From a virus (Duplodnaviria; Caudoviricetes): DNA of 42,043 bases. Below the pieces are notes generated by a model. That model was not told the DNA's origin. It did no database searches and worked only from the letters and a program-made list of their open reading frames with translations. Location: positions 1 to 42,043 of the IMG/VR virus record IMGVR_UViG_3300025572_000014. One strand, given 5' to 3'. Of this stretch, positions 22,522 to 40,933 are shown one piece after another. Position 1 is the first letter of the stretch, and every line of letters starts with the position of its first letter. Made by a program: the position numbers and the translations under genes.

Positions 22522-22540
22522 CGAATCACTCCTTTCGCGC

Positions 22541-22585
22541 AAAATAAAAAAGCCCTGACAACGGCGCTAGGCCATCATTAGGGCT
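22541..22585 (-). terminator. Intrinsic terminator between the Com-like gene and the portal
   Basis: AGCCCU-AAUGAUGGC-cuagc-GCCGUUGUC-AGGGCU-UUUUUAUUUU. Confidence 0.75.
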
Positions 22586-22600
22586 TCGGGAGCCTCTAAG

Positions 22601-22705
22601 CTATTCCGTTTTGTTTAGCGTCTTGCACCGCGGGCAGATGATCTCCGCGCAGCCTCGGATGCGTCCGAGAAGTTTATTGCACTTGCGGCAGCGGAAGTCG
22701 ATCAT
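22601..22705 (-). CDS. Com-family zinc-finger regulator (MIDFRCRKCNKLLGRIRGCAEIICPRCKTLNKTE); absent from the ORF track
   Basis: AGGAGG RBS; RCxxCxKLL...EIxCPRCKTLN is the Mu Com-like signature. Confidence 0.8.
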   Translation of the reverse strand: MIDFRCRKCNKLLGRIRGCAEIICPRCKTLNKTE

Positions 22706-22731
22706 GACGCCGTTCCTCCTAGGGAATCTAT

Positions 22732-23025
22732 TTACTCCTCCAGCTCCTCCAGTCTGCCATTGTCGCCCTTTGGCTTCACCGGCTCATACAGCCCGCGCTT
22801 CGTTTTAAAATCCTCGTACCGCGTCTCGTACGTCCGCAGCGGATTGCGAAGGCTCGGTTTTACGCGCTTGACTTTGATCGTCTCCTCGTCCGTAGAGAAT
22901 GGGGGCGGGATGCTCTTCGCTCTTTTGTCCGTCACTAAAAACGCGCCAAACATCGCCCCAACAGCGAAGATGAGAAGTGCCGAAATCACTTCCGCAGCAT
23001 ATTCCATCCATTCATGGCTTTCCAT
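22732..23025 (-). CDS. Small membrane protein
   Basis: N-terminal TM helix, AAGGGGG RBS. Confidence 0.55.
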   Translation of the reverse strand: MESHEWMEYAAEVISALLIFAVGAMFGAFLVTDKRAKSIPPPFSTDEETIKVKRVKPSLRNPLRTYETRYEDFKTKRGLYEPVKPKGDNGRLEELEE

Positions 23026-23203
23026 TCCCCACGTCCCCCTTCGCAAAACTGGCGATAAATCCGCACGCCTCGCAGCGGTAGTGACTCATCCGCGTCGGCC
23101 GCATCCCGTCCGCTTTCCAATGCGGATAGCCCATGTCCGTGCGCGACTGACGCCATGAAGTTCCGCCGCACATGGGGCATTTCATTTTCCCCGGTTCCAT
23201 CAC
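23012..23203 (-). CDS. Small Zn-ribbon protein
   Basis: CPMCG...CEACG, overlaps the terL stop. Confidence 0.55.
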   Translation of the reverse strand: MMEPGKMKCPMCGGTSWRQSRTDMGYPHWKADGMRPTRMSHYRCEACGFIASFAKGDVGNGKP

Positions 23204-24720
23204 AACACCTTCCTGATCTCGTATTTACTGAGGCCCAAATCCTCCAGCTCCGTCGGCGTGTAAAACTCACCTAGAAGCCGCCGTTTTTCCTTCGGCACAA
23301 ACCGATATTGCAGACGATTCAGCGCCTGACTCATCGCGTCTACCTGGTCGTCATGCGCGCCTTTCGGAAACGCCGCGCACTCGTCGATGAATTCCTCGAC
23401 CCACGGTTTGCCGCGCGGCAGATAGACGTTTCCCGCCTCGATCTCCGGCGCCACCGCAGACACGCGAGCAACCTTTCCACCTTCGGGCTGTACGGGCACG
23501 AGTCCGCCGACTTTGGTCCGCAGCATCTGTATGACCGCCGGGCCGTTAGCTTTGTCCTCGATGAGCTTCAGCTTCGCTTGCGGCCATTTTGCGGTCATCC
23601 GCACAATCGCATCCATCGTCTGCACGATGTCCATGCGGTCGCGCACCTGGTCGACGAGGTACTTATCCGCGCCGATGCGGCCCCATACCTGCCCCACCAC
23701 GTAGTCGCTTCCGTCGCTGTCTTTGAACGCGCAGTCCCAGCTTTGAATTATCTCGTCAAACCGCATGAAGCGCGGATCGATGTCGTAAAACCGCCACCAT
23801 TCGCGCTTTAACATCGCGCCTTCTGCGGCGCTCGGACGTTGTTGGTAGAGCGCGTTAAAGAAGTATGTCCCGACGGCTCGCCGCGTCTCCTCCAGCCGCT
23901 TTGCATCAAATCCGCCCTCCGGCCAGAGCGCTTCGCCCGGTTTTCGTCCGAGCATGTCGCCATCCTCTGCCAGCGCCGGAAAATTGATCACCGTCCAGCG
24001 CTCGCCTTCGTGCGTGCCCTCGGCGATCTCCTCGCGCTCCTTTTGCAGCAACCGCCCGATCAAATCATCCTCGTGCCAGCGCGTCGCAACGATGATGATG
24101 CGGCCGTCGCTCGTCAGCCGCGTAAACAACGTCGATTGGTACCACTCGTAAATCTTCTCGCGAATCGTCTCGCTCGCGGCTTCTTCGGCGTTTTTCAAAT
24201 AGTCGTCGATGATCGCGATTCTTGCGCCGCGCCCGGTGATCGGACCACCGATACCGGCGGCATTCAGCCCGCCGCGATGCCCGGCGATGCCCCAGCTCTC
24301 TGCGCTATGGTTGTCTGGGTCGATCTCGACGCCCGGAAACACCTCCGGCCGCGCCGCTAACGTGTCGCGAGCAATCCGCGAAAAATCGCGCGCAAGGTCA
24401 ATCGAATACGACGCAAGGATGATCTCGTCGTCCGGATTGCGCCCCAGGTGCCACGCAGGAAACTTTTTAGATACGCGCTCGCTTTTGCCATGCCGCGGCG
24501 GCATCGTCACGATCAGGCGCTTGATTTTGCCTTCGCTGACATCTTGAAGTGCGCGATCCAGCACGTCCAGATGCTTGCCTGGCGTATCCCGGAACCCACT
24601 GTCATAGTCCATGAAGTAGGTGAACGACTGATACGCCAGCGCCTTGCGCACGTCCTCCAGCGATGGCAGGCGGAGAGCGGGGGCGCCACTCTTGCGCTTA
24701 GCCTTCTTCGTCGCGCTCAT
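23200..24720 (-). CDS. terL: Terminase large subunit
   Basis: MPPRHGKS Walker A, IIDDY Walker B, TRWHEDD, SWDCA nuclease motif, IEDKANG, HDDQVDA. Confidence 0.95.
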   Translation of the reverse strand: MSATKKAKRKSGAPALRLPSLEDVRKALAYQSFTYFMDYDSGFRDTPGKHLDVLDRALQDVSEGKIKRLIVTMPPRHGKSERVSKKFPAWHLGRNPDDEIILASYSIDLARDFSRIARDTLAARPEVFPGVEIDPDNHSAESWGIAGHRGGLNAAGIGGPITGRGARIAIIDDYLKNAEEAASETIREKIYEWYQSTLFTRLTSDGRIIIVATRWHEDDLIGRLLQKEREEIAEGTHEGERWTVINFPALAEDGDMLGRKPGEALWPEGGFDAKRLEETRRAVGTYFFNALYQQRPSAAEGAMLKREWWRFYDIDPRFMRFDEIIQSWDCAFKDSDGSDYVVGQVWGRIGADKYLVDQVRDRMDIVQTMDAIVRMTAKWPQAKLKLIEDKANGPAVIQMLRTKVGGLVPVQPEGGKVARVSAVAPEIEAGNVYLPRGKPWVEEFIDECAAFPKGAHDDQVDAMSQALNRLQYRFVPKEKRRLLGEFYTPTELEDLGLSKYEIRKVL

Positions 24721-25376
24721 GGCTTGGCTTCCTTCCGCTTCTTTAGCCACGTTTTCCGACGCAACAGACGGCCGCATTCCGCGCCTGGTTCAAGCCACAA
24801 CTTCCACGGCAGCAATATCTTCCGCCTTTCCAGCGGATCGGCGTTCATCACCAACCGGCACAGCGTGGCGTTGATACGGTTTCTATCGCCACAAAAGATG
24901 ATTTCCGGGTTCAGATATAGCGGACGTTCCTCCACGACGCGCCCGTGCCGCTTCAATTGTTGCGCGTCCACAAACTCATAAATAATGCCCTTATCCAGCA
25001 ACGATGTTACCAGCGCCCGCGCCTGCCGCACGGAATACTTGGATGACTCAGCCAATGCGGAAATGGTCATATATCGGCCTTCCGCATCCACGACGGCGTT
25101 AGAGTGCATTTCTGTTCGACCCATCACAGACATCAAAAAAGCGAGTTCCGACGTGGTAAGATACTCGCTTTCGATGATGTAATTTAGGTTTTCGGCGATC
25201 ACCTGCACGAAACCGGCGGGATTGCGCGGCGTCACGTGGACGATCTTCACGTTTTGATCAACGGCCTTTTTCAGTTCCCGCGCCAGCGTGCCGACATCTA
25301 TTTCATTGTCAAAATCGCGTCGCCTGGCGTTCATCTCTGCGGCCCAAAAAGCCTGTTCTAGCGCGGCTCTACCCAC
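24717..25376 (-). CDS. RepL-like winged-helix replication/maintenance protein inserted between terS and terL
   Basis: FVQVIAENL...LT..E..FL...HTH...L.DKGII...LYLNPEIIFCG pattern of Firmicute plasmid RepL-type proteins; preceded by 22-bp iterons. Confidence 0.65.
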   Translation of the reverse strand: MGRAALEQAFWAAEMNARRRDFDNEIDVGTLARELKKAVDQNVKIVHVTPRNPAGFVQVIAENLNYIIESEYLTTSELAFLMSVMGRTEMHSNAVVDAEGRYMTISALAESSKYSVRQARALVTSLLDKGIIYEFVDAQQLKRHGRVVEERPLYLNPEIIFCGDRNRINATLCRLVMNADPLERRKILLPWKLWLEPGAECGRLLRRKTWLKKRKEAKP

Positions 25377-25396
25377 GTTCTCACCACCTTCGGCAG

Positions 25397-25438
25397 GTAG
25401 GAAATTTTTCGCCTACATGTAGGAAATTTTTCGCCTAC
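25397..25438. repeat. Two 20-bp direct repeats with 22-bp period (GTAGGAAATTTTTCGCCTAC), iteron/operator-like
   Basis: Exact copies at 25397-25416 and 25419-25438, each with GTAGG/CCTAC self-complementary ends, just upstream of the RepL-like gene. Confidence 0.85.
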
Positions 25439-25549
25439 CTTAAATCGACCACAAACCCAAGCGCAACAAGGGATTTCGGCGTTTTGGGTAGTGGTCTCCT
25501 ATCTCACTCTGTATATATACCTGCGACGCTATGAAGACATCTGTACAAA

Positions 25550-26074
25550 CTAGCTCGTTTTTTCTTCGTTTTTCTCTGCGCGTGACAAAAGCTGCTCCAA
25601 CTGCACCAACTCTTCCGGCGACAGGCTGCGCAGATCGTGCGTAATGGTCTGTTTGACCCCGCCGCTGTGCTCGATCTCGTGCTTGTCGCGCCAATTCTGC
25701 GGCTGTCTGTTTTTCAACCACGCCATCGCGGCGCCGGTGTCAGGTGCAACCTCTTTTACGACGCGCTTTGTGATGGTCTCTGTGCCGTCTTTTCCGGGCT
25801 CAACAGTGATTTCCTCGTACTGGTACCCTTTGGCTCGCTTGTAGAGGCTGGCGGCCACCTCGGCGTCTGCAATCTCTTTGCCCCTTTTTAGGGCGTCGCA
25901 AAACTCCGAATATGTATCCTTCCATCGGTAAATCGTTGCTACGTCTACACCAAGAAACTCTGCAAGTTGCGCATCAGTTGCTCCAAGAAGGCAAAACTTA
26001 TATGCTAAATCGGCATATTCCGGCTTATACTTGCTCGGCCGCCCGCCAATCCCTTTCCTGCTTTTCTTCTCCAC
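25550..26074 (-). CDS. terS: Terminase small subunit
   Basis: GRPSKY, HTH (GATDAQLAEFLGVDVATIYRWK), SLYKRAKGY and PDTGAAMAWLKNRQP motifs; GAGGGGG RBS before GTG 26074. Confidence 0.9.
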   Translation of the reverse strand: MEKKSRKGIGGRPSKYKPEYADLAYKFCLLGATDAQLAEFLGVDVATIYRWKDTYSEFCDALKRGKEIADAEVAASLYKRAKGYQYEEITVEPGKDGTETITKRVVKEVAPDTGAAMAWLKNRQPQNWRDKHEIEHSGGVKQTITHDLRSLSPEELVQLEQLLSRAEKNEEKTS

Positions 26075-26196
26075 ATCATCCGCCCCCTCGCGCGCGATTT
26101 CACCTAATGGCACTTCGTAAGACAAAAAACCGCACATTTTATCGCTTCGCAAAATTTGTTCACAAATTCGTAACATTTTGTTCGTATTATGTTCGT

Positions 26197-26225
26197 TTGA
26201 CAGTCGTAAAACGATGTGGTATGAT
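26197..26225 (+). promoter_or_regulatory. Near-consensus sigA promoter of the plus-strand operon
   Basis: TTGACA-17 nt-TATGAT with a TG extension and an AT-rich upstream region. Confidence 0.85.
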
Positions 26226-26237
26226 GAAGCCAACAAA

Positions 26238-26267
26238 GGCCGACAGCCGACGACAAGGGCGGCGGGC
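26238..26267 (+). repeat. Leader element A, copy 1 (GGCCGACAGCCGACGACAAGGGCGGCGGGC)
   Basis: Identical to 26680-26709; directly precedes an RBS. Confidence 0.9.
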
Positions 26268-26283
26268 GGAAAGGATGGTCAAA

Positions 26284-26619
26284 ATGAAGAAAATCAAAAT
26301 CAATTATTACGCCGGGGAATCGAATTACCTGGGTCACGGCCAGCCCATCGCGGTTGACTACCTCATCTCCGACCCCCTCGATTGGGACGATCTCCGGGGA
26401 GACGAATTCGACGGCCCGATATTCGGGGACGACACCGCCGCCGATTTGATCCGGGTTGGCGGCAAATATCACCTGTACGCGGAAATGGAAAATCCCACCC
26501 GGAGCGAGGAAGACGAGACCGCAACTTTTGACAAGCTAAAAGCAGAAATCATCGAGCTTGCGAAAAAGGTTGGCATTGATCCGAGCCGACTTGTATTCCC
26601 GTATGACGACCCCGCCTGA
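26284..26619 (+). CDS. Acidic hypothetical protein (MKKIKINYYAGESNYLGHG...)
   Basis: GGAAAGGA RBS; its TGA stop is the UGA of hammerhead 1. Confidence 0.75.
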   Translation: MKKIKINYYAGESNYLGHGQPIAVDYLISDPLDWDDLRGDEFDGPIFGDDTAADLIRVGGKYHLYAEMENPTRSEEDETATFDKLKAEIIELAKKVGIDPSRLVFPYDDPA

Positions 26620-26665
26620 CGAGTCCGCTGGTCACGGACGAAACCGGGTTTATCCCGGTCGCGGG
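26611..26665 (+). ncRNA. Hammerhead ribozyme 1 (type I), predicted cleavage after C26660
   Basis: CCCGC | CUGACGA | GUCCG-cugguca-CGGAC | GAAA | CCGGG-uuuau-CCCGG | UC | GCGGG. Complete core, three perfect stems and a GUC triplet. Confidence 0.95.
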
Positions 26666-26679
26666 AGACCGCACATCAT

Positions 26680-26709
26680 GGCCGACAGCCGACGACAAGG
26701 GCGGCGGGC
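26680..26709 (+). repeat. Leader element A, copy 2
   Basis: 30/30 identity with 26238-26267; between hammerhead 1 and the next RBS. Confidence 0.9.
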
Positions 26710-26727
26710 TTGAAAGGAGAAGGAATC

Positions 26728-26991
26728 ATGGTAAAGATTGCGATCAAGGTGCAAAACAGCAAGGTTTACGGCGAAGACGAAAAGGGAACCTGGGAGGACT
26801 TGCTGGAAGAAATGGCGCTGAAAGTCGAAGGGTGGGCCGGCTACGACGTTGACGAGTCCAGCTACATCGGCGGAGCACGGCACATGCGGGGAACACTAAA
26901 CGATGAAAACTTTAAACCGATCTACACCTTCTACGCGGTTGTAACGGCTGAATGGGGCGAGGCCGAGGTCGGCAGGCTTCGGGGAGAGTGA
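26728..26991 (+). CDS. Hypothetical protein (MVKIAIKVQNSK...)
   Basis: AAAGGAGAAGGA RBS, ATG 26728. Confidence 0.7.
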   Translation: MVKIAIKVQNSKVYGEDEKGTWEDLLEEMALKVEGWAGYDVDESSYIGGARHMRGTLNDENFKPIYTFYAVVTAEWGEAEVGRLRGE

Positions 26992-27001
26992 CTTGACCGC
27001 C
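26969..27001 (+). repeat. Element B, copy 1 (TCGGCAGGCTTCGGGGAGAGTGACTTGACCGCC)
   Basis: 32/33 identical to 28089-28121; contains the stop of 26728-26991. Confidence 0.85.
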
Positions 27002-27043
27002 CCGGCCCCACAAAACCACCCGAAAGGACGTTTCGATATTTAG

Positions 27044-27109
27044 CCCGCCTGACGAGGCCCGGAGCGGACCGGGCCGAAACCTAGCCGCAGCTGCGGCGAT
27101 GGTCGCGGG
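27044..27109 (+). ncRNA. Hammerhead ribozyme 2 (type I), predicted cleavage after C27104
   Basis: CCCGC | CUGACGA | GGCCCGG-agcgga-CCGGGCC | GAAA | CC-ua-GCCGC-agcu-GCGGC-gau-GG | UC | GCGGG. Same core and stem I as HH1, with different stems II and III that still pair. Confidence 0.92.
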
Positions 27110-27143
27110 AAGCCCGCAACATAAAATCCAAGGAGGAATTATC

Positions 27144-27512
27144 ATGAACATCATCAATCTCACCCCCCACGCGATAAACGTTGTAAAGGATGACGGCACG
27201 ATCATCGCGTCGTTCCCGCCGTCAGGGGCGGTGGCGCGAGTGGACACGATCACGGATGACCTCGGACCTCTGAACGTGCACCCGGACATTCCGGTCGTCG
27301 TCCAGAGCTTCGGCGCGGTGAAGGGTCTGCCGGACCCGCAGCCGGACACGATCTATCTCGTGTCGATGGTTGTCGGGCAGGCGGCCGGACAAGATCGGGA
27401 CGACCTGCTCGGACCGGACACTTCGCCCGCCGGAGCGGTGCGTGATGCGGACGGCCGGATTATCGGAACCCGGCGGTTGGTGTACTACGGACGGGTAAAC
27501 CCGCGCCCTTGA
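27144..27512 (+). CDS. Conserved phage protein with an N-terminal NLTPH motif (possible ring-nuclease-like)
   Basis: AAGGAGG RBS; INLTPH...PSG.VARV...GLPDPQPDTIYLVS...R.DLL.P...RD..GRIIG. Function is inferred only. Confidence 0.75.
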   Translation: MNIINLTPHAINVVKDDGTIIASFPPSGAVARVDTITDDLGPLNVHPDIPVVVQSFGAVKGLPDPQPDTIYLVSMVVGQAAGQDRDDLLGPDTSPAGAVRDADGRIIGTRRLVYYGRVNPRP

Positions 27513-27627
27513 AACTGCGGGAGCGGGCAACCCGCAACGCTGTGCAATGCCGGTGATCCATATTGCGGTTGAAAGTGATACACATTCTAAAGCCACCATC
27601 CCAAACATTTGTTAAGGAGGAATCCAA

Positions 27628-28044
27628 ATGGGAAAATACGTTGTTGAGACGAACGGGTTGATTATGCGTCTGCCAAAGGTGCTCGAAGTGGAATGCTCCA
27701 CTTCTGAGGACCCGATCAAGAAGGCGCGGCAAACTCTCGCCGATATGTGCGTTCGTGAGAATGCGTCTTTCGCGGTTGGTCGGGCCGGTGCTTACCGTCC
27801 GACTCCCCCGGGTACCGTCTACCTGCCGCCGGATGTGGCGGAGGCGCTGAAATTCGTTCTTGCCGGGAACGAGAAAATGTCCGAAAAACTCGTTCTCCGA
27901 ATCGTTATGAACCCTGAGGCGGAAAAACGCATGGGGTGGGACGTGCTTCATCGCTGGGTGAAAAGCGACATCGGAAACATCATTCTCCTCATCGACGCTA
28001 TCCGGGACGGTTTCGATGTGGAGGTACGCGGAGCGTACCAGTGA
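27628..28044 (+). CDS. Hypothetical protein
   Basis: AAGGAGG RBS, 138 aa. Confidence 0.75.
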   Translation: MGKYVVETNGLIMRLPKVLEVECSTSEDPIKKARQTLADMCVRENASFAVGRAGAYRPTPPGTVYLPPDVAEALKFVLAGNEKMSEKLVLRIVMNPEAEKRMGWDVLHRWVKSDIGNIILLIDAIRDGFDVEVRGAYQ

Positions 28045-28067
28045 AAAACTGTCGGCGCTGAACGAAT

Positions 28068-28130
28068 GAAGCCCGCCGATCTCGCACATCGGCAGGCTTC
28101 GGGGAGAGTGACTCGACCGCCGCTCTCCCC
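28068..28130 (+). repeat. Double hairpin containing element B, copy 2
   Basis: GAAGCCcGCCGAU-cucgcac-AUCGGCaGGCUUC followed by GGGGAGAGUG-acucgaccgc-CGCUCUCCCC. Confidence 0.7.
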
Positions 28131-28161
28131 TCCATCATATCACATTTGGAGGGATTTGCAC

Positions 28162-28626
28162 ATGGAAAACATCAGCGTCGTCGCCGTGAAGCAGGTTCGG
28201 GAGCGGACGCTCCCCTACAACGTTCGTCCCATTCGCCAGCCCGAGGATGCTTATTCGATCCTTTGCGAAGCGATGGCACTGCACGAGGAAGCCATCGAAA
28301 AGTTTGGTGTTCTGCTCCTGGACACCAAATGCAACGTGAATGCCATCCAGATCATTTCCGCGGGGACCTTGGACCAAACGATCGTCCATCCGCGTTCCGT
28401 CTTCCTTGCGGCCGTTCTCGCGAATGCTCGGCAAATGATCCTGTTTCACAACCACCCGAGCGGAGACCCGAAAGCAAGCCGGGCAGACGTGGACATCACG
28501 CTCCGTCTCATCGACGCAAGCCGCATCATGGGCATTCCGATCATTGACCATATCATCGTAGGTGACGGAACATTTTACAGCATGCGAGCGCACGGCGACA
28601 TGCCTGCGCCGGAAGGGGCGGCCTAA
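28162..28626 (+). CDS. radC: RadC-like JAB/MPN domain protein
   Basis: EKFGVLLLD...GTLDQTIVHPR.VF...HNHPSGDPKAS.AD...IIDHIIVG; GGAGGG RBS; stand-alone JAB domain. Confidence 0.92.
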   Translation: MENISVVAVKQVRERTLPYNVRPIRQPEDAYSILCEAMALHEEAIEKFGVLLLDTKCNVNAIQIISAGTLDQTIVHPRSVFLAAVLANARQMILFHNHPSGDPKASRADVDITLRLIDASRIMGIPIIDHIIVGDGTFYSMRAHGDMPAPEGAA

Positions 28627-28724
28627 TGGACGTTGAATCATGGTTCCTGTTTACGCTGGCGCTGTTCGTAGTCCTCGGCGGGCTGACGCTCATTGCGTGG
28701 TTCGCCGAGATGCTGGAGGATTAA
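28626..28724 (+). CDS. 32-aa single-TM peptide (MDVESWFLFTLALFVVLGGLTLIAWFAEMLED); absent from the ORF track
   Basis: TAATG coupling to the radC stop, GAAGGGG RBS, hydrophobic core; its stop abuts twister-sister 1. Confidence 0.65.
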   Translation: MDVESWFLFTLALFVVLGGLTLIAWFAEMLED

Positions 28725-28797
28725 CGAAGGCTAGGCCCAGTCCCGTGAAAGCCGGGACCGGCGGGGAGCACCCCCGCCGCGGCGCTCAACCGATCGT
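28725..28797 (+). ncRNA. Twister-sister ribozyme 1 (three-way junction), predicted cleavage C28787/A28788
   Basis: GG-CUAG-GCC-CA-GUCCCG-ugaaagc-CGGGAC-C-GGCGGGG-agcac-CCCCGCC-GC-GGC-GCUCA-A-CC. Closely matches the twister-sister architecture as I recall it (GCWAG...GCUCA internal loop, UG.AAGC loop). Confidence 0.85.
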
Positions 28798-28852
28798 ACC
28801 TATGAGGAATGCGGCCTGCGGCCGTAAAAATCAATCAAAAGGGTGATGTTGG

Positions 28853-29278
28853 ATGACGTTGTTTCGGAAGAAGTTTCCCTCCTTTCTGGAGGGACTGCAT
28901 GAGCTCATGCAGGTTTGCTATTCTGCTCGTCAGTCTCTCAGCCACAACCTCGGACGCTCGCCTGCGTCTGAGGAAGAAGCGGTTTCCGCGCTGGCGATCA
29001 ACGCAGTATGCGATCGCCCGACCGGAAACGGCGTAGATTGGGCGCGGTGCAGCTTGTCCGTCACCGCCACGGACGTTCTTTACCGTACCACGGGCGGACT
29101 TGAATTCGGGTGGAGTCCGCTTCTCGGCGGCGGCCAGACAGATATTTTTGATGGTTCGTTCGAATTTCTCATCATCTATCCGGGGTGTGTGCCCGCTCCG
29201 CCGCACTCCACCTTGCGCAAGAGTTGCGCAGAGGCCGGTTGGGAGGTGGTGGAACCGTTGGAACAGTCCGAGGGCTAG
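28853..29278 (+). CDS. Hypothetical protein
   Basis: AAGGGTG RBS; its TAG stop lies in the GCUAG of twister-sister 2. Confidence 0.65.
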   Translation: MTLFRKKFPSFLEGLHELMQVCYSARQSLSHNLGRSPASEEEAVSALAINAVCDRPTGNGVDWARCSLSVTATDVLYRTTGGLEFGWSPLLGGGQTDIFDGSFEFLIIYPGCVPAPPHSTLRKSCAEAGWEVVEPLEQSEG

Positions 29279-29331
29279 GGACAAGGCCGTGAAGCCCGGC
29301 GCGGGGCCGCGGCCCCTTCCGCTCAACCTCG
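29269..29331 (+). ncRNA. Twister-sister ribozyme 2 (variant), predicted cleavage C29324/A29325
   Basis: CGAGG | GCUAG | GGA | CAAG | GCCG-ugaagcc-CGGC | GC | GGGGCC-gc-GGCCCC | U | UCC | GCUCAA | CCUCG. P2 covaries with TS1 (GCC/GGC to GGA/UCC); the loop deviates. Confidence 0.7.
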
Positions 29332-29361
29332 AAAGAGGAAATGAATAAGGAGTTGATTCCA

Positions 29362-29769
29362 ATGAAAATTGGGCTGATTCGCGGCCGGCATCCGCTGCCG
29401 GTCGAAAAATGCCTGATCGAGCAGGCAGAGGTGCCGTTCGATCAGGCGCATCGCATGGCATATGACGCCATGCAGAAGCTGCTATCGGAACATGCCGGAG
29501 ATGTCGATCTTTACATTACCGGCCTTAAGCGCGCCACGTTGGGCGCCGTCGCAGGCTGGATCAATCACTACGACCGCATCGAGCCAGCGGAATACAGTTC
29601 CGCCGCTCCCGAGTCGCGCACGCTGCGGATCTGGGAGTATAACGCGGTAACGGGGCAGTACGAATCCGTCATTGCATTCCGGTCCGGGGCAATCATGACG
29701 GAAGTCCTTTACTGTCAGGGCTCATACCAGTTCGTCTGGGGTACATATGCCCTCATGGAAGGGACGTGA
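29362..29769 (+). CDS. Hypothetical phage protein with GRH and LYITGL motifs
   Basis: AAGGAG RBS; MKIGLIRGRHPLPV...VDLYITGL...LRIWEYN..TGQY. Confidence 0.75.
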   Translation: MKIGLIRGRHPLPVEKCLIEQAEVPFDQAHRMAYDAMQKLLSEHAGDVDLYITGLKRATLGAVAGWINHYDRIEPAEYSSAAPESRTLRIWEYNAVTGQYESVIAFRSGAIMTEVLYCQGSYQFVWGTYALMEGT

Positions 29770-29825
29770 GGCCTCTCCCATGTTTTTCACAAGTAAGGAC
29801 ATTATTCGCGGAGGAGGAATTAGAC

Positions 29826-30263
29826 ATGGCTAAAACCCACACCGGCTTTCGCATACGGCCCGAAGTGCTTGAACAGTTGGACGCCCGAGGGCCTCGATCC
29901 ACGATTGCGGATCGCGATCTGGAACGCCTGTATGCGCTCTATGCCCGGGCGCTCCAGCGCGTCGTGCCGTCGTTCAGCATCGACGAACTGTGCCTCATCG
30001 TCGATGCCCTGAATGGCACCCTGCACGACGTTCGCAGCGGCGTGCGGTTCTGGATCGGCGTCGAGGATTCCATCGAACTCGACGGACTCGCCCAAAAATG
30101 GAACGTCGACGCTCTGGCACTCATGGAGAAACTGCGCCCGCTCGACGAACTGACCTGCATGGCGATTGTGGACGCCGCAGAGCGGTTCTGGTGCGGCGAG
30201 AAGTACCGCAACATGGACGTGCATGAAGGTGTGCGCGATGCGTTCGGAATTAGGAATACTTGA
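29826..30263 (+). CDS. Putative regulator: N-terminal ribbon-helix-helix-like segment plus helical domain
   Basis: GGAGGAGG RBS; HTGFRIRPEVLEQLDARGPRSTIADRDLERL resembles Arc/MetJ strand-helix-helix. Confidence 0.6.
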   Translation: MAKTHTGFRIRPEVLEQLDARGPRSTIADRDLERLYALYARALQRVVPSFSIDELCLIVDALNGTLHDVRSGVRFWIGVEDSIELDGLAQKWNVDALALMEKLRPLDELTCMAIVDAAERFWCGEKYRNMDVHEGVRDAFGIRNT

Positions 30264-31149
30264 CGCGAAACTGGAGGCGTTAGAGCGGCGCATATGGGAA
30301 GATGTGCGCCGCGATTGGGATTACGTGGATAAAATCCACGTCCAGCAGGAAGACTTCGACGCGCTGAAACGGGTGCGCCTCTCGCCGGAGGAACTATCTC
30401 CGGTGCTGGAGGCGCTGTTTCGGCCGGAGAAACGCATGTTTCTGGATGACATCGCGCTCATCGTAGCGGCGGATGAGGATGTGCGCCGGATTATCCATCT
30501 GAAATACCTGGACCCGGAAAACGCCGTCCTTTCCGCCTTCGACGGCGACGGCAGGTTGTTCGGACGCATCGCCGTCCACGTCGAGGGTGATGATGTGCAG
30601 GTGAAACCGGACAGCGTGGCGCCGTTCGGGCTTCGATACGTGGACCGGTTCGCGCGGGAGTATTTGGCGAAGTACGAGCCGACGCCGGACATGTACCAAG
30701 GCGGCCGGGTCACGAATGCCGCCGTCCGGAAACTCATGGCGCAGCTCCATGTGCGGCTTTCCGAGCGGATGCTGCCGCGGCTTGAAGAATTTTTTTTCTT
30801 TGTGCTCGCGGCGATCCATCGGGTTCTGAACACGCCGGTCATCGTGAAGCCGGCGCCGTACTCGGAAGACGCCTCGCCGCAGGAAGTCGAGGCATTGAAT
30901 CAGCGGCGGCCGGCGGCTCTCGGACCGCGTGCGCCTTATCCACGGTCGCTCCAGCGCATCATCTATGCGGGCCGTCCAGCGCCGCAGAAACGAGACGGTC
31001 CGCGGGTGTACGTCCAGCACGTCGAGTCCTGGAAGGTGCGCGGACATTGGCGCGTGTATCGAACGGGAAAGCGCGTGTGGGTACGGCCGCACGTAAAGGG
31101 GCGGAAGTCCGAGAAGTTTCGGCCGCTCGGCGCTGACTATATTTTGTGA
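30238..31149 (+). CDS. Hypothetical protein with a basic C-terminal VRGHWR...WVRPHVKG motif
   Basis: GAAGGTG RBS before ATG 30238. The motif recurs in phage proteins of unknown function. Confidence 0.7.
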   Translation: MRSELGILDAKLEALERRIWEDVRRDWDYVDKIHVQQEDFDALKRVRLSPEELSPVLEALFRPEKRMFLDDIALIVAADEDVRRIIHLKYLDPENAVLSAFDGDGRLFGRIAVHVEGDDVQVKPDSVAPFGLRYVDRFAREYLAKYEPTPDMYQGGRVTNAAVRKLMAQLHVRLSERMLPRLEEFFFFVLAAIHRVLNTPVIVKPAPYSEDASPQEVEALNQRRPAALGPRAPYPRSLQRIIYAGRPAPQKRDGPRVYVQHVESWKVRGHWRVYRTGKRVWVRPHVKGRKSEKFRPLGADYIL

Positions 31150-31216
31150 AAGCGAGGGGTGGACGTGCCGCCGCAACGCGGACGTAATGAGGAGTAATGG
31201 AAAACGAACCTGCATC

Positions 31217-31723
31217 CTACACCAGGAACAGGTTCGTTTCTTTTTCGCGCCGGATCTTCGCCCGCGCCCGCTCGACATATTCCTGCACCGCGCCCTTTGC
31301 TAAGTGCAGCTCCCGCGCGATCTCCCCGAAACTCATCCCGTCAACCACATGCATTACGAAACATTGGCGCTCGCGCATAGTCAGATCGCGCATCGCCTCT
31401 TCGATACGAAACCGATCATCGTCTGTAAGCCCCGCTGTGATCGTCTCGCGCTCGATAGACCAGCCGTAAGGGGAATGATACCGGTCCAGCCATTCGGGCG
31501 CCCACGGGCGCTCGTAGCGCCTCTCAACGCCTTTCAGCGATTTAGGATTGCGCCCTGTCTCCAGCCACTGAAGCGCGAACTCCACGTCCCCGAGCATGCT
31601 GCTGATGATTTCGCGGTCTGCCGCATCCTTTGTTTTCTCTCTCAACTTTTGCAGTCCGCGACGCGCAGCCCGATATTGTGGTATGAGATCGACCACTGAT
31701 TCGTTCCAATGCCCGACAGCCAT
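31217..31723 (-). CDS. Late-gene activator, sigma-70 region 4 (PBSX Xpf-like)
   Basis: IISSMLGDVEFALQWLETGRNP and LTMRERQCFVMH...SFGEIARELHL..G.VQ.YVERARAKI; last gene of the early operon. Confidence 0.85.
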   Translation of the reverse strand: MAVGHWNESVVDLIPQYRAARRGLQKLREKTKDAADREIISSMLGDVEFALQWLETGRNPKSLKGVERRYERPWAPEWLDRYHSPYGWSIERETITAGLTDDDRFRIEEAMRDLTMRERQCFVMHVVDGMSFGEIARELHLAKGAVQEYVERARAKIRREKETNLFLV

Positions 31724-31777
31724 TCCCCGACCCCTCCCCTGTGGTATAATAGGGTTAGGGAGAACATATTTTCTTTG

Positions 31778-31811
31778 CCCCGCCGACCAGCTGAGCCGGC
31801 GGGGATTTTTT
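31778..31811 (+). terminator. Intrinsic terminator (plus-strand U-tract)
   Basis: CCCCGCCG/CGGCGGGG stem followed by ATTTTTT. Confidence 0.7.
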
Positions 31812-31838
31812 ATCTATGCAATACTTCTTCCAGTGGTG

Positions 31839-32243
31839 TCACTCCACCGTCACTCCGATTTCGCGGAGGATGTTGCGGGCACGTTGTCCATAATCACCAA
31901 GCACCATTGAAACGCCGTTTATTTTGTTCATGCTTGCATAAAACCGCAACCCCTCGATCAGCTTTTGCCGCTCTTCTCTCAACCTCCGGTTCTCCTTCTC
32001 CAACTCGCACAACTCCGTCAAATGCGCGTTATGCGCGGCGCGTTCTTCGGCGTATTCTTGCTGGATGCGGTCAATTTCATCTAGCATCACGCCAACCGCT
32101 TCAAATACCGTAAATTGCGGAAATGAGTCCATTTTCCCTTCGTGCCATTCTCGTATCTCAGCGATCTTCTTTTTCCGATTACTCATCTTTCTATCTTCTC
32201 GAATCTCCGCGATCTTTTGCGCGGTGTCAGACATGGGCATCAA
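31839..32243 (-). CDS. Coiled-coil hypothetical protein
   Basis: GGAGG RBS; part of a tightly coupled early operon. Confidence 0.65.
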   Translation of the reverse strand: MMPMSDTAQKIAEIREDRKMSNRKKKIAEIREWHEGKMDSFPQFTVFEAVGVMLDEIDRIQQEYAEERAAHNAHLTELCELEKENRRLREERQKLIEGLRFYASMNKINGVSMVLGDYGQRARNILREIGVTVE

Positions 32244-32475
32244 CCTCCATCACCCTTTCAACGTCCGACCAATCACGAACAAACGCTACTTTTGCACCGG
32301 AACTTTCGAGTTGTTCCATCCATTTCTGCCTTCTCGGAATATAACCTTGTTTGCACACAATGAAGTAATATGTTCTTCCTTCCCGAACGCAAAGAATTTC
32401 AGAAACGCTTTTTGAGCATTTGGGAAGCATCGGAATCGCATAGGTTTTGGGCAATCCGTTCAACTTATCAATCAT
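32227..32475 (-). CDS. Hypothetical protein
   Basis: Overlapping start/stop with both neighbours. Confidence 0.55.
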   Translation of the reverse strand: MIDKLNGLPKTYAIPMLPKCSKSVSEILCVREGRTYYFIVCKQGYIPRRQKWMEQLESSGAKVAFVRDWSDVERVMEVDAHV

Positions 32476-32831
32476 TCACCCATCACCGCCAGAAGGGCGG
32501 CTTTGCAGATGGCTTCGGGGGCTGTTTGTGCTTGATAATCAGCGGGTTTGTGTCCATCATCGCTGTGCCCAATGACGCAATAAAATGACCCGCTTAAAGT
32601 CTTTTCAATGCATATCCGGCGACCTTTTATCTCCTCCAAAACCTCAAACGCTGCGGCTATGTCGGTGGACGGACTAAACCAACGCGGCCAGCATACTTCC
32701 TCGCCATTAACTTCCGATACCCAGTAGCATTCATCGCCGATGTCCTTCTTCTCCGCCTTGAAAACGGTTCGCATAACCAGCGCATCCAATTCCCGCCCCG
32801 GCTTCATGGCCAACACTTCATCACGTGTCAT
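32472..32831 (-). CDS. Phage ABA-sandwich (BC1872-like) protein
   Basis: GRELDALV...FSPSTDIAAAFEVLE...TAPEAICKAALLA motif. Confidence 0.75.
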   Translation of the reverse strand: MTRDEVLAMKPGRELDALVMRTVFKAEKKDIGDECYWVSEVNGEEVCWPRWFSPSTDIAAAFEVLEEIKGRRICIEKTLSGSFYCVIGHSDDGHKPADYQAQTAPEAICKAALLAVMGE

Positions 32832-33192
32832 GGTTCGGTTCCTCCCAATGACCATGTTCCTTCATAATCTCAATGACTTGATCAGCATACGGCTCATCCC
32901 TATTAATGACGAGGTAAGTGTTATTATATTTCCTTCCTTCTTCTTGACGGCGTACTGCAATATCTCGAACGATTTCAACTAAATTGGCTATTTGCGTATC
33001 TGTCAGGTATCGAAGGTCGTCATTTTTGATAACGGTATATTTATTCATGGTTCTGTTCCTCCAGTCCGGCCAATTTAATGTTGTACCATTCGAGAAATAT
33101 ACAGTTACTTTCGTAATGCATTTTGGACATAATACCGTTGGAACACTCGTCGTTTGATATTTTTCGCCGCATTTCCAACAGATTGATGTCAC
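32821..33192 (-). CDS. Hypothetical protein (Zn-finger N-terminus; possible second start at 33048)
   Basis: AAAGGAGAGG RBS; internal GGAGG before MNKYTVIK. Confidence 0.6.
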   Translation of the reverse strand: MTSICWKCGEKYQTTSVPTVLCPKCITKVTVYFSNGTTLNWPDWRNRTMNKYTVIKNDDLRYLTDTQIANLVEIVRDIAVRRQEEGRKYNNTYLVINRDEPYADQVIEIMKEHGHWEEPNHDT

Positions 33193-33221
33193 GCCGTTTC
33201 CTCTCCTTTCAGCAGTTCGGT

Positions 33222-33713
33222 TTAAGGTTTAATACTGATCTCGCATCCGCAACATGGGCATTCAATCCGTTCCACTTTCGCCGCATTGGCATTTACCGGA
33301 GGCAACGCATCGGTGCAAGGTTCGCAAAACCATCTGTTGGCGGTACTGAGATACTTGCCTTCGCGGGTGCCGCAAATCACACAGGTTTTGTCTTGTTTCG
33401 GTTCGGTTGTGGTGGAGAGGGCTTCACGGGCAACTTTATTCATTTCTTGACATGCAGTTAATTCGTGCAAGTTCGGATCGTCAAAGATTTTCGTTATCTT
33501 CTCCAACGCCGCCCGCAGACGCTGGACTTCGGTGTTGTCAGCATCGAATGCGCCGGATTGGATAGCGTGCTCAAGATTCTGCAACGCACGTATTGCCCCG
33601 CCGTGAAACTCCTTCATGTGCCTTGTCATTACTGCATCCTGTTGCCGCTCTGTTATGCCAATTTCGCGTCGAATGTGTTCCAACACCGCTTTCTTGCTCA
33701 GGTATTCACTCAT
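33222..33713 (-). CDS. Mosaic hypothetical protein with Zn fingers
   Basis: AAAGGAG RBS; three Cys pairs. Confidence 0.65.
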   Translation of the reverse strand: MSEYLSKKAVLEHIRREIGITERQQDAVMTRHMKEFHGGAIRALQNLEHAIQSGAFDADNTEVQRLRAALEKITKIFDDPNLHELTACQEMNKVAREALSTTTEPKQDKTCVICGTREGKYLSTANRWFCEPCTDALPPVNANAAKVERIECPCCGCEISIKP

Positions 33714-33728
33714 TGGCGTTCGCTCCTT

Positions 33729-34013
33729 TCACCTTACGTTTATCGCCCAAACTGTAATCGCGCCTCGTCCGGGCTTACCGAACGTGTAGCAGCCTTTGTC
33801 ACCGTCATAATCGCAATCTTCAGGCGGAACAGGATACCATCGGACATATTTCTCGCGGATATTTTCCGGTTTAACTTTATCTGCAAAATCGTACCCATCG
33901 CTTTCAAATTGCGCGGTTTCCAAAAATTCCTCTTTCGTGTACTTCGATTTCGGCGCAACGATGTCGGTCACATAACAACCGTCGTGGAAAAACATGAAGT
34001 CAAATTTGCTCAC
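33729..34013 (-). CDS. Hypothetical protein
   Basis: AAAGGAG RBS, GTG start. Confidence 0.65.
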   Translation of the reverse strand: MSKFDFMFFHDGCYVTDIVAPKSKYTKEEFLETAQFESDGYDFADKVKPENIREKYVRWYPVPPEDCDYDGDKGCYTFGKPGRGAITVWAINVR

Positions 34014-34028
34014 TTTTGTTCGCTCCTT

Positions 34029-34208
34029 TCACATCTCACATTTCCCTGTAGGACAGTCGTTCCCGTAGGCAGCGGATTCGTCGGATATGTTCAGCAGTCG
34101 CTTCAAATCTTCTTTTCTGCAACGCTCGCATGCCAAGATTTTCTTTGCATAGTGGTTGGTTGGCATTTCCGTCAATTCGCCGCCGCAACGTGGGCAATAT
34201 TCGATCAT
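34029..34208 (-). CDS. Small Zn-ribbon protein (MIEYCPRCGG...)
   Basis: GAGGGAGGGG RBS; CPRC...CERC. Confidence 0.6.
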   Translation of the reverse strand: MIEYCPRCGGELTEMPTNHYAKKILACERCRKEDLKRLLNISDESAAYGNDCPTGKCEM

Positions 34209-34222
34209 CCCTTTCCCCTCCC

Positions 34223-34465
34223 TCAAAACAACGTCAATTGCTCCTGCTCCGGCACATACGGTTTCGCGCGCTTGTCGAATTGCTCCGCTATCCAACGCCC
34301 GCAGTAATCGTCCGCGCGGAAAAAGACGATCTCGTATTTGCCGACGATGTGCCGGGCGACCTCGCGGACGGGTTTTCCGTCCAGCATGTGCGTCCAGTCG
34401 CCGGGCGGCTGCGCGAGGATTGCGCTTGCCATACACGCGGCTTCTTCGTAGGTGATGGTGCGCAT
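34223..34465 (-). CDS. Hypothetical protein
   Basis: Adjacent to the upstream stop; EQLTLF C-terminus is a clamp-binding-like motif. Confidence 0.6.
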   Translation of the reverse strand: MRTITYEEAACMASAILAQPPGDWTHMLDGKPVREVARHIVGKYEIVFFRADDYCGRWIAEQFDKRAKPYVPEQEQLTLF

Positions 34466-34840
34466 CTATACCATCACTGGATCCGGCACCGGAATTTTCT
34501 CGTAAATCGGACGCCATAAGTGCAGACAGTACGGATGGTTATTCACGTAATCCTTCTTCGCCGGATGCAGTTGCATCACAACTTCATCGTCGTGGAAGAA
34601 AATCTCTTTAATGGCCTGCATCTCTTCCCATCGCGGGCAGCGCTCCGCCGTGCTGACGCTGACATGTTCCCATCCGCCACCGTTGGAGACGATGACCGCA
34701 AACTCCAGTCGGCTCGTCGGCAGTTTGATCTTGAATGCGCCGTTATAGTCGTCGCCCCAACCGGCGAATGGATGCTCCACGCGCTGGATGGAGACGGCGG
34801 GCGACGTGTTCAGTTTGTTGAGGTTGCGCACGTCTTTCAC
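34466..34840 (-). CDS. Conserved phage protein
   Basis: GWEHVSVS...RCP.WEEM..IK..FF...QLHP...YVNNHPYCLHLW motif seen widely in phages. Confidence 0.75.
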   Translation of the reverse strand: MKDVRNLNKLNTSPAVSIQRVEHPFAGWGDDYNGAFKIKLPTSRLEFAVIVSNGGGWEHVSVSTAERCPRWEEMQAIKEIFFHDDEVVMQLHPAKKDYVNNHPYCLHLWRPIYEKIPVPDPVMV

Positions 34841-34844
34841 CCCC

Positions 34845-35663: not shown

Positions 35664-35905
35664 CCCTCCCCCGTCACATCCACCGTAACTTCTTCAATCC
35701 CGTCCCATAATTCGCGTATCTCTTGCGCTTTCGCCACCACGGCGGCCTTCTGCTTCGGTTGCAGTACAATGTCCATCGCTTCGCCATAGTGCTTTTCAGC
35801 CAACCGATACGCCCGCGTGTGAAACTCATTCATCACGGCCCAAAACTCGCGGTATCCGAGCTTCTTCATCCGCTGGTAGAACGCACGTTTTTCTTCCCGG
35901 CTCAT
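35660..35905 (-). CDS. Hypothetical protein
   Basis: GGGAGGG RBS, ATG 35905. Confidence 0.6.
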   Translation of the reverse strand: MSREEKRAFYQRMKKLGYREFWAVMNEFHTRAYRLAEKHYGEAMDIVLQPKQKAAVVAKAQEIRELWDGIEEVTVDVTGEG

Positions 35906-36212
35906 CCGTGCCGTCCCTCCCAATCAATCGCAGAAACGTCTCCAGCGACATCGCCACCAGCCACGGCTTTCTGTCAGCCCGGAACGCCACCACATCCGGC
36001 TTTTCCCTCTCATCCTCCAGCCAGCCGTATAACGTCGAAAATCCGCTTCTGCGCCGCTTTACCTCCGCCCGAATAGTCCCTATAGGGGTAGGCACCAAAA
36101 CGTCGTTCTCGAAGCCATTCTGTGCGCCAGAGAGGGGGATGCGGCGGCCGCCCACCAGTTCCGCGAACTCCCGCTCGCCGCGAAGTCCCTTGTCACGGCT
36201 TTTCTTTCCCAC
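35826..36212 (-). CDS. PD-(D/E)XK Holliday junction resolvase-like nuclease
   Basis: SRDKGLRGERE...SGA...D...EVKRR motif. Confidence 0.8.
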   Translation of the reverse strand: MGKKSRDKGLRGEREFAELVGGRRIPLSGAQNGFENDVLVPTPIGTIRAEVKRRRSGFSTLYGWLEDEREKPDVVAFRADRKPWLVAMSLETFLRLIGRDGTDEPGRKTCVLPADEEARIPRVLGRDE

Positions 36213-36435: not shown

Positions 36436-36453
36436 CGTCTGTTGCCCCCTTGA

Positions 36454-40887: not shown

Positions 40888-40933
40888 GCTTGTTTCCTCC
40901 TTCCATCAAACTCTTCCACAATCACTTTCCGCT

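What the first reader, a model, noticed from the sequence alone, without database searches (positions are those of the whole stretch)
26197..31149. Phage operon punctuated by four self-cleaving ribozymes of two classes, a candidate self-processing anti-defence cassette array
Seen: one near-perfect sigA promoter drives ~10 small plus-strand genes against the direction of the rest of the genome. Two hammerheads (26611-26665, 27044-27109) and two twister-sister motifs (28725-28797, 29269-29331) each sit between a stop codon and the next RBS, in the sense orientation. Known: self-cleaving ribozymes cluster near each other in bacterial and phage DNA, but their biological role is largely unknown. 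RadC/JAB genes are typical early cargo of mobile elements. Inference: the transcript cuts itself into five pieces without host RNases, which could set the stability or stoichiometry of each early protein, and the cargo counters host defence.
Basis: partly seen in the sequence, partly recalled or inferred. Interest (0 to 1): 0.95.

Follow-up and report, generated by a model that had tools for sequence, protein, structure and literature searches.

The report
Self-capping ribozymes split phage anti-defence operon
A phage accessory operon has four self-cutting-RNA motifs between ten small genes, three of them followed by a conserved hairpin that would likely cap and protect the cut message, and one gene is a clear relative of an enzyme that destroys CRISPR alarm signals; the layout has been known since 2011, but the predicted cap and the cargo make its purpose testable.

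Summary
The idea is old: Perreault 2011 showed clustered prophage hammerheads cutting operons, one cluster around the anti-restriction gene ardA. Corrections: the two hammerheads are clean, but both twister-sisters carry a defect (TS1 a broken P1 stem, TS2 a broken tertiary pair), so five full pieces is uncertain. The island sits in the slot between the sigma-like regulator and the terminase genes. Additions: (1) behind HH1, HH2 and TS2 a second copy of the P1 5' strand can refold the new 5'-OH end into a terminal hairpin. This recurs in 60 of 92 dereplicated phage hammerheads of the subtype (shuffled mean 11) and in most twister-sister relatives. I did not find it in print, but earlier notes of this scan saw it. 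(2) The cargo includes a Crn4b ring-nuclease homologue with its catalytic residues, RadC/JAB, an AcrVA2-like protein and a probable stand-alone half-SAVED domain. (3) Genes and ribozymes are shuffled among relatives. Best reading: likely self-processing, self-capping expression cassettes for anti-defence genes in a Bacillota phage. Cleavage and capping are untested.

The parts
26197..26225 (+). sigma-A-type promoter with extended -10, divergent from terS
   Evidence: same promoter region in L004, L006
26238..26267 (+). D5 leader repeat, copy 1 (GC-rich hairpin before the first RBS)
26284..26619 (+). o1, 111 aa, unknown; stop codon is the UGA of the HH1 core; relatives lie between two twister-sisters in L141, L144, L145
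26611..26665 (+). HH1, type I hammerhead; predicted cut after C26660; loop II 26630-33 can pair with tail 26667-70 (pseudoknot)
26661..26672 (+). predicted capping hairpin of the HH1 3' product (4 bp, GNRA loop, no unpaired 5' base)
26680..26709 (+). D5 leader repeat, exact copy 2; D5-gene-HH1-D5 also in L018 with another gene
26728..26991 (+). o2, 87 aa, unknown; relative in L004 is followed by a whole D3 element
26969..27001 (+). truncated copy of the D3 element overlapping the end of o2
27044..27109 (+). HH2, type I hammerhead with interrupted stem III; predicted cut after C27104; loop II 27064-67 can pair with tail 27114-17
   Evidence: homologue in Paenibacillus phage Pd_22F
27105..27117 (+). 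predicted capping hairpin of the HH2 3' product (5 bp)
27144..27512 (+). o3, 122 aa, Crn4b-type ring nuclease homologue, T7/H9/R99 kept; likely anti-type III CRISPR
   Evidence: PADLOC Unk_01 E 4e-21; PDB 9r7b E 1.3e-12; residues from PMC12830947
27628..28044 (+). o4, 138 aa, unknown
   Evidence: no family
28068..28150 (+). D3 element: two covarying hairpins plus an anti-SD/SD pair in front of radC; no Rfam match
28134..28142 (-). conserved extended -10-like box facing back over D3; would give a roughly 70-nt antisense RNA
   Evidence: (repeat I13)
28162..28626 (+). radC, stand-alone RadC/JAB domain, 154 aa
   Evidence: PF04002 E 7e-40
28626..28724 (+). o6, 32 aa hydrophobic peptide
28724..28797 (+). 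TS1, three-way twister-sister; core intact, P1 reduced to 1 bp plus an offset 4-bp stem; no terminal cap; predicted cut after C28787
28853..29278 (+). o7, 141 aa, unknown; stop codon inside the TS2 core
29269..29331 (+). TS2, twister-sister of a variant branch below the Rfam threshold; compensatory P1, P2, P4; junction-loop pair mismatched; predicted cut after C29324
29327..29338 (+). predicted capping hairpin of the TS2 3' product (4 bp, GAAA loop, 2 unpaired 5' bases)
29362..29769 (+). o8, 135 aa, phage family of 328 representatives; predicted fold like one CARF-like half of SAVED; invariant GRH motif
29826..30263 (+). o9, 145 aa, unknown; 87 relatives, the named ones Bacillota; also in L006, L018
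30238..31149 (+). o10, 303 aa, AcrVA2/FinQ-like fold and basic C-terminal tail; HxR motif replaced by WKVRGH

Best explanation
The island is a swappable array of small genes, several likely anti-defence, whose single transcript likely cuts itself at the ribozymes into one- to four-gene messages, each of which is predicted to refold its new 5'-hydroxyl end into a terminal hairpin that would shield it from the host 5'-to-3' nuclease RNase J. Steps: (1) shown in sequence: one strong promoter, ten genes, four ribozyme motifs next to or overlapping stop codons. (2) Inferred from family data: HH1 and HH2 cut during transcription, helped by the loop II-tail pseudoknot; TS1 and TS2 cut less well or not at all. 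(3) Shown as a conserved sequence pattern, inferred as a structure: after the cut the freed P1 3' strand pairs with a downstream copy of its partner, which blocks re-joining and leaves 0-2 unpaired bases at the 5' end. (4) Inferred: this turns a cut that destroys the glmS message in Bacillus into a stabilising one, and makes each gene's expression independent of its neighbours, so cassettes can be shuffled by recombination at the shared ribozyme and leader sequences. (5) Inferred from homology: the cargo lowers cyclic-oligoadenylate and CRISPR immunity (Crn4b certain as homologue; AcrVA2-like, half-SAVED-like and RadC/JAB less so).
For: Motifs far above chance. Cap pattern: CCGC at +8..+28 after the cut in 87 of 127 hammerheads with this P1, against 13.6 in shuffled tails, 8 further downstream and 19 upstream; no other GC-rich 4-mer above 32. 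After dereplication at 70% identity 60 of 92 (shuffled mean 10.9, max 20), and 44 of 73 where stem-loop II lacks GCGG, so it is not only the pseudoknot partner. Spacer 4-19 nt. Twister-sisters show the same design with another sequence, and TS2 changes P1 5', P1 3' and cap together. P1-formed and capped folds are within 0.3-3.3 kcal/mol before pseudoknot energy. RNase J1 degrades the 5'-OH glmS product and 5' hairpins stabilise Bacillus mRNA (PMC3997798 section 7). The upstream gene ends within 20 nt before the core or at the core UGA in 72 of 101 cases with a gene found, and at the core UGA in 32 of 42 genes that enter the ribozyme (p 2e-8 against one in three). Median cut-to-start distance 41 nt. 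Shuffling: the same genes sit behind or before different ribozymes in L004, L018, L023, L141, L144, L145; DNA contigs of run X2 join the TS1 tail to o3 and HH1 to HH2. A Crn4 also follows a capped hammerhead in L041. Contigs of an RNA library (X3) cover o1-o4, radC, o7 and o9-o10, though DNA in that library is not excluded.
Against: No cleavage or end-mapping data. The cap travels with one hammerhead subtype: in a P1-unbiased genome sample 21 of 28 with P1 GCGG were capped against 4 of 28 others, so descent and host range cannot be separated from selection by RNase J; only 1 of 5 Bacillota hammerheads with another P1 was capped. The fifth cap pair shows no clear covariation. In HH1 and HH2 the cap overlaps the pseudoknot partner, so it competes with the active fold, and the HH1 minimum-energy fold is a misfold 3 kcal/mol below the active one. 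For twister-sisters 16 of 18 tails form a terminal helix, but shuffles reach 8.3 on average and 15 at most, and the sequences are related. TS1 has no cap; related islands L004 and L006 have no ribozyme that I could detect. Across the family only 9 of 90 genes behind such ribozymes hit Pfam, with ArdC, one Crn4, one o8 relative and a GNAT as the only anti-defence leads. Structural matches of o8 and o10 have Z 5.1-5.6, below the tool's trust line of 8.
Confidence: 0.6

Rival explanations
1. The tail copy of the P1 strand is a switch on the ribozyme, not a shield: it competes with P1 and the pseudoknot before the cut, so that only part of the transcripts cut, or cutting depends on whether a ribosome is terminating on the stop codon inside the core; or it only speeds product release.
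For: Capped and active folds are nearly equal in energy; cap and pseudoknot overlap in HH1 and HH2; stop codons are enriched in the core.
Against: Longer-spacer relatives keep a separate CCGC beyond the pseudoknot partner; Perreault's clustered ribozymes cut efficiently during transcription, though I did not check whether those had such tails.
Confidence: 0.2
2. The ribozymes are mainly shared junction sequences that let cassettes recombine; cleavage is tolerated but not needed, and the two twister-sisters are decaying.
For: TS1 and TS2 each break a conserved element; islands L004 and L006 lack detectable ribozymes; hybrid junctions in X2; a 5'-damaged twister-sister follows a hammerhead in L023.
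Against: Catalytic cores are invariant while stems covary, including a tertiary pair; sequence homology for recombination would not need covariation or two classes.
Confidence: 0.1
3. Cutting destabilises: as with glmS, the 5'-OH products are degraded, and the ribozymes set a falling gradient or keep toxic cargo low.
For: RNase J1 degrades 5'-OH RNA after glmS cleavage; TS1 leaves a product without a terminal cap.
Against: Three of four products here, and most in the subtype, start with a hairpin that leaves 0-2 free bases.
Confidence: 0.07

Closest known systems
Clustered hammerhead ribozymes flanking single genes in prophages (Perreault et al. 2011, PMC3088659; passages, Results part 1 and Discussion part 1 read)
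   Same: Several ribozymes between small, variable genes of one phage transcript; loop-tail pseudoknots; anti-defence cargo (ardA) noted; processing into gene-length mRNAs proposed and cleavage shown.
   Different: Here two classes are mixed, the products carry a predicted terminal hairpin that the parts I read do not mention, and the cargo points to cyclic-nucleotide and CRISPR defence.
Type I hammerhead (Rfam RF00163)
   Same: Core, three stems, GUC site, open stem I.
   Different: Below or outside the Rfam threshold; bacterial subtype with P1 CCGC/GCGG and a tail copy of the 5' strand.
Twister-sister ribozyme (Rfam RF02681; Zheng et al. 2017, PMC5660989, passages read)
   Same: G5-C6-N-A8-G9 and G-C-U-C^A strands, P2, P4 with 7-nt loop, P5; three-way form.
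   Different: A in place of U64 in all 15 aligned; TS2 branch has P2 GGA/UCC and swapped loop and tertiary pairs, unseen by Rfam; window copies each have one defect.
glmS ribozyme and RNase J1 (PMC3997798 section 7; PMC6765202 passages)
   Same: Self-cleavage in a Bacillota mRNA leaving a 5'-OH end ahead of a gene.
   Different: No ligand pocket; predicted outcome is protection, not decay.
RiboJ insulator of synthetic biology (recalled, not read; one search listed one review that names it)
   Same: Ribozyme plus hairpin gives a defined 5' end and context-independent expression.
   Different: Engineered, from a plant satellite hammerhead; here the hairpin is natural and reuses the ribozyme's own strand.
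Crn4b ring nuclease (Chi et al. 2025, PMC12830947, passages read)
   Same: Sequence, size, T/H/R residues; phage-borne copies are described as likely anti-CRISPRs.
   Different: Activity of this copy untested; its place behind a ribozyme is not described in the passages read.
AcrVA2/FinQ family (bioRxiv 10.1101/2022.11.29.518452, passages read) and SAVED/AcrIII-2 (PMC12751052, passages read)
   Same: o10: best structural match is AcrVA2 and it ends the operon with a basic tail; o8: best matches are the C-terminal half of SAVED domains.
   Different: o10 lacks the HxR motif; o8 is one CARF-like half only; both matches are middling.

Membership tests
Type I hammerhead (HH1, HH2) | Core CUGAnGA, GAAA, UH | tested here: met
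Type I hammerhead (HH1, HH2) | Stems I (open), II, III paired next to the core | tested here: met
   5/5/6 and 5/7/3+5 pairs, all valid
Type I hammerhead (HH1, HH2) | Stem I-stem II tertiary contact | tested here: met
   4-bp loop II-tail complement in both, with different sequences; pairing is predicted
Type I hammerhead (HH1, HH2) | Rfam gathering score | tested here: not met
   HH1 22.6 of 34 bits, HH2 no hit
Type I hammerhead (HH1, HH2) | Mg2+-dependent self-cleavage | not testable with these tools
   needs transcription assay
Twister-sister (TS1) | Conserved L1 and loop-4 nucleotides, Rfam score | tested here: met
   40.4 of 34 bits
Twister-sister (TS1) | Continuous stem P1 closing L1 | tested here: not met
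   4 of 5 family P1 pairs broken; an offset 4-bp stem remains
Twister-sister (TS2) | L1 core and stems P1, P2, P4, P5 | tested here: met
   compensatory changes in P1, P2, P4
Twister-sister (TS2) | Loop 4 to junction Watson-Crick pair (G27-C14 of the three-way form) | tested here: not met
   C-G in 10, G-C in 4, unpaired only in TS2 (pair); a one-base shift might rescue it
Twister-sister (TS1, TS2) | Self-cleavage at C^A | not testable with these tools
   needs assay
Clustered phage ribozyme arrays (Perreault 2011) | Several sense-strand ribozymes flanking single genes or short blocks with variable genes | tested here: met
Crn4b ring nuclease (o3) | Homology over the whole chain | tested here: met
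   E 1.3e-12 to 9r7b, residues 2-115
Crn4b ring nuclease (o3) | Conserved Thr, His, Arg | tested here: met
   T7, H9, R99 align with Crn4a T13, H15, R112
Crn4b ring nuclease (o3) | cOA cleavage by a homodimer | not testable with these tools
   needs assay
AcrVA2/FinQ (o10) | Fold similarity | tested here: inconclusive
   rank 1 of 48,161 but Z 5.6, rmsd 5.7, 148 aligned; language-model score 0.97 with low recognition; Foldseek and sequence search gave nothing
AcrVA2/FinQ (o10) | C-terminal HxR..H motif | tested here: not met
   WKVRGH in o10 and 4 of 5 aligned relatives, WTVRGH in the fifth; motif
SAVED ring nuclease AcrIII-2 (o8) | Two tandem CARF-like halves in one chain | tested here: not met
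   135 aa, one half only
SAVED ring nuclease AcrIII-2 (o8) | SAVED-half fold | tested here: inconclusive
   top three matches are SAVED C-terminal halves, Z 5.1-5.3, rmsd 2.7-3.5, 90-102 aligned; 1 of 63 family members hits a PADLOC SAVED model, E 2e-5

The most novel reading that the evidence does not exclude
Phages have evolved, in two unrelated ribozyme classes, a natural self-capping insulator: a ribozyme whose tail recaptures its own P1 strand after the cut and gives every downstream gene an RNase J-resistant 5' end. This is what makes ribozyme-gene units plug-and-play, and explains why bacterial self-cleaving ribozymes of any class crowd into the same accessory loci. This island uses it to express a kit against cyclic-nucleotide and CRISPR immunity that includes an undescribed stand-alone half-SAVED sponge or ring nuclease, with RadC held back by a separate antisense RNA.
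Probability: 0.3. Interest if true: 0.82.

Novelty: new variant of a known kind. Interest (0 to 1): 0.57.

Why it matters
What bacterial and phage self-cleaving ribozymes are for is an open question (PMC6765202). The cap hypothesis turns it into a sharp test: change a few bases in a tail and measure half-life with and without RNase J1. A cultured phage, Paenibacillus phage Pd_22F, carries an HH2 homologue with the same kind of cap. The cargo gives a readout of phage benefit (Crn4b against type III CRISPR) and, by guilt of association, candidates for new anti-defence proteins (o1, o2, o4, o7, o8, o9). The variant twister-sister branch and HH2 show what Rfam misses.

Tried and rejected
RNA reads: in RNA run X3 no contig covers the flanks 24500-26101 or 30641-32500, none bridges a ribozyme, and two contigs begin at 26670 and 27114, nine bases after the predicted hammerhead cuts, where DNA run X1 runs through. 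This is one study, depth 3-11, about half the island covered, and contigs cannot show ends or levels, so I do not count it as evidence for cleavage or for expression in a lysogen. A wider laying over 22100-42043 was not obtained. D3 as a fifth ribozyme: rejected for now; its invariant bases are accounted for by stems, an SD/anti-SD pair and a reverse -10 box, and it has no Rfam match. D5 exact search found no other viral contig; looser profiles did. No clear terminator ends the island. An RNase J link by host group could not be separated from ribozyme subtype (0 of 7 gammaproteobacterial, 1 of 10 archaeal copies capped, all with other P1 sequences). o1, o2, o4, o6, o7, o8, o9: no Pfam, PHROG, NCBIfam or PADLOC family. 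o8 and o10: no significant PDB sequence or Foldseek match; the viral fold library gave only uncharacterised proteins for o8; the Atlas gave unnamed phage clusters and a weak Pam3_gp32 lead. An o8 dimer prediction was not run. o7 has no likeness to the gene in a similar slot of L023. Cultured phages: only Pd_22F matches the island, at HH2. My first pair count was one column out of register and was redone. Searches that did not turn up the cap hairpin in print; a stand-alone half-SAVED. Weinberg 2015 (PMC4509812) is not held, and I did not read the supplements of Perreault 2011; either may already show the tail hairpin or the twister-sister variant.

Full report
Setting. The window is a 42-kb virus record, 58% complete. 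Nearly all genes run on the minus strand. The island at 26197-31149 runs on the plus strand between terS/terL and a sigma-70-region-4 regulator. Related phages L004, L006 and L018 carry islands next to their terminase genes too. The host is likely a Bacillota: named relatives of o8 are Paenibacillus, those of o9 Clostridia, Moorella and Thermincola, and the closest HH2 copies are in Paenibacillus genomes and phage Pd_22F.

Observation. Rfam finds only TS1 at threshold and HH1 weakly. Pattern tests find exactly two hammerheads and two twister-sisters in the window and almost none in 200 shuffles. HH1 and HH2 have full cores and a 4-bp loop II-tail complement with different sequences. An alignment of 15 twister-sisters pairs in 96.7% of cells with 9 doubly changed pairs, including the loop-to-junction pair known from the three-way structure. 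This validates a variant branch that Rfam misses (L023, L139, L141, L142, L145). It also shows the weak points of the window's copies: TS1 breaks 4 of 5 P1 pairs, and TS2 alone breaks the tertiary pair. So three pieces are likely and five are uncertain. The five would be about 430, 444, 1683, 537 and 1875 nt (ends assumed).

What was known. Perreault 2011 describes several hammerheads flanking single genes in prophages, shows cleavage of three clusters in vitro and one in E. coli, and notes ardA cargo (passages and two section parts read). A 2019 review says that different classes fill the same places and that processing could give pieces of different stability (passages).

The cap. After the cut, the 3' products of HH1, HH2 and TS2 fold their first bases into a 4-5 bp hairpin made of the P1 3' strand and a downstream copy of its partner. 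I tested this on phage hammerheads pulled with the same P1 (the scan stopped at 131 of about 220 stretches). The copy lies at +8..+28 in 87 of 127, against 13.6 shuffled, 8 further downstream and 19 upstream. At 70% identity clustering it is 60 of 92, and 44 of 73 where loop II cannot use it. Twister-sisters do the same with another sequence: 16 of 18, though shuffles give 8.3 and the set is related. In TS2 the two P1 strands and the cap change together. Against: in a genome sample not chosen by P1 (56 distinct type I copies scored out of 124 loci), 21 of 28 with this P1 were capped and 4 of 28 others, so the cap is tied to one subtype. From the known architecture, types II and III leave a closed stem I at the new 5' end by themselves; type I and twister-sister have an open P1 and need such a copy. 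I saw the pattern, before finding two earlier notes of this scan that report it in a gut phage; those are not independent support. My literature searches did not show it.

Mechanism. In Bacillus a ribozyme-made 5'-OH end is degraded by RNase J1, as for glmS, while 5' hairpins stabilise messages (section read). A cap that leaves 0-2 free bases would reverse the outcome. Before the cut, capped and P1-formed folds are close in energy (-24.9/-25.8, -37.5/-37.2, -23.3/-26.6 kcal/mol without pseudoknots), so the pseudoknot likely decides for the active fold first. This closeness also keeps the switch reading alive. Ribozymes hug the upstream stop: of 136 examined, 35 had no gene found, 19 stopped over 20 nt before the core, 40 within 20 nt, 32 at the core UGA and 10 beyond.

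Modularity. o1 lies before a hammerhead here and between two twister-sisters in L141, L144 and L145. o8 follows a twister-sister in L141. L018 has D5-gene-HH1-D5 with another gene. L004 has o2 followed by a whole D3, of which the window keeps a stub. DNA contigs of run X2 join the TS1 tail to o3 and the front of HH1 to the back of HH2. L004 and L006 show that islands can do without detectable ribozymes.

Cargo. o3 is a Crn4b homologue with the residues that the Crn4 paper shows or marks as conserved (passages); that paper reports phage copies as likely anti-CRISPRs. L041 has another Crn4 right behind a capped hammerhead. radC is a plain RadC/JAB domain. o10 is nearest to AcrVA2 by language-model features and by structure, but the match is middling and the HxR motif is replaced: it may work like AcrVA2/FinQ, and I do not file it there. 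o8 has a confident model (pLDDT 92) whose best matches are C-terminal SAVED halves, and 1 of 63 relatives tested hits a SAVED profile: a lead for a new cyclic-nucleotide sponge or nuclease. Six genes stay unknown. Over the family, 81 of 90 genes behind such ribozymes have no Pfam hit, so anti-defence is shown for this island more than for the class.

A second control element. D3 before radC is a two-hairpin leader with 91% pairing and 9 doubly changed pairs in 7 sequences, plus a conserved extended -10-like box on the opposite strand. It likely makes a roughly 70-nt antisense RNA. It precedes different genes in different phages.

Verdict. Real features, known arrangement, new variant.

Noticed in passing
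window 28068-28150; L004, L005, L006, L018, L023, L139, L140, L142, L146: D3: covarying two-hairpin leader with anti-SD/SD and a conserved reverse extended -10 box, no Rfam match; candidate antisense-RNA-controlled cassette leader placed before many different genes.
   Followed up: partly
L023:3362-3449(-), L139:3203-3285(-), L141:4892-4978, L142:3412-3495(-), L145:1057-1143: Twister-sister variant branch (P2 GGA/UCC, swapped loop and tertiary pairs) below the Rfam threshold.
   Followed up: yes
window 29362-29769; 328 representatives: Phage protein family with invariant GRH and LYITGL motifs whose fold resembles one half of a SAVED domain; weak link to Pam3_gp32.
   Followed up: partly
window 27515-27610: 115-nt gap between o3 and o4 with hairpins and no family match; a contig of run X4 lacks 77 nt of it.
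   Followed up: no
window 31733-31815: Plus-strand extended -10 box overlapping the RBS of the sigma-like gene, followed by a LexA-box-like word (recalled consensus) and a terminator-like hairpin; possible short antisense or SOS-linked RNA.
   Followed up: no
window 24717-25376 (-): 219-aa gene with a weak winged-helix signal inserted between terS and terL, also in L006.
   Followed up: no
L223-L225, L259, L260, L183 (Aliivibrio MAG): Dense arrays of type I hammerheads with an AU-rich P1 and no product hairpin; useful contrast set.
   Followed up: partly
L027:3070-4403; L031/L032: Four hammerheads of the capped subtype within 1.3-2.6 kb, with the RBS directly after the cap in L027.
   Followed up: no
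L139:5465-5554, L140:2503-2592: DUF3800-VII RNA (RF02967) next to a D3 element and twister-sister array.
   Followed up: no
L272 (MZ092003, Paenibacillus phage Pd_22F) 4001-4072: Cultured phage with an HH2 homologue and a 4-bp cap; experimental model.
   Followed up: partly
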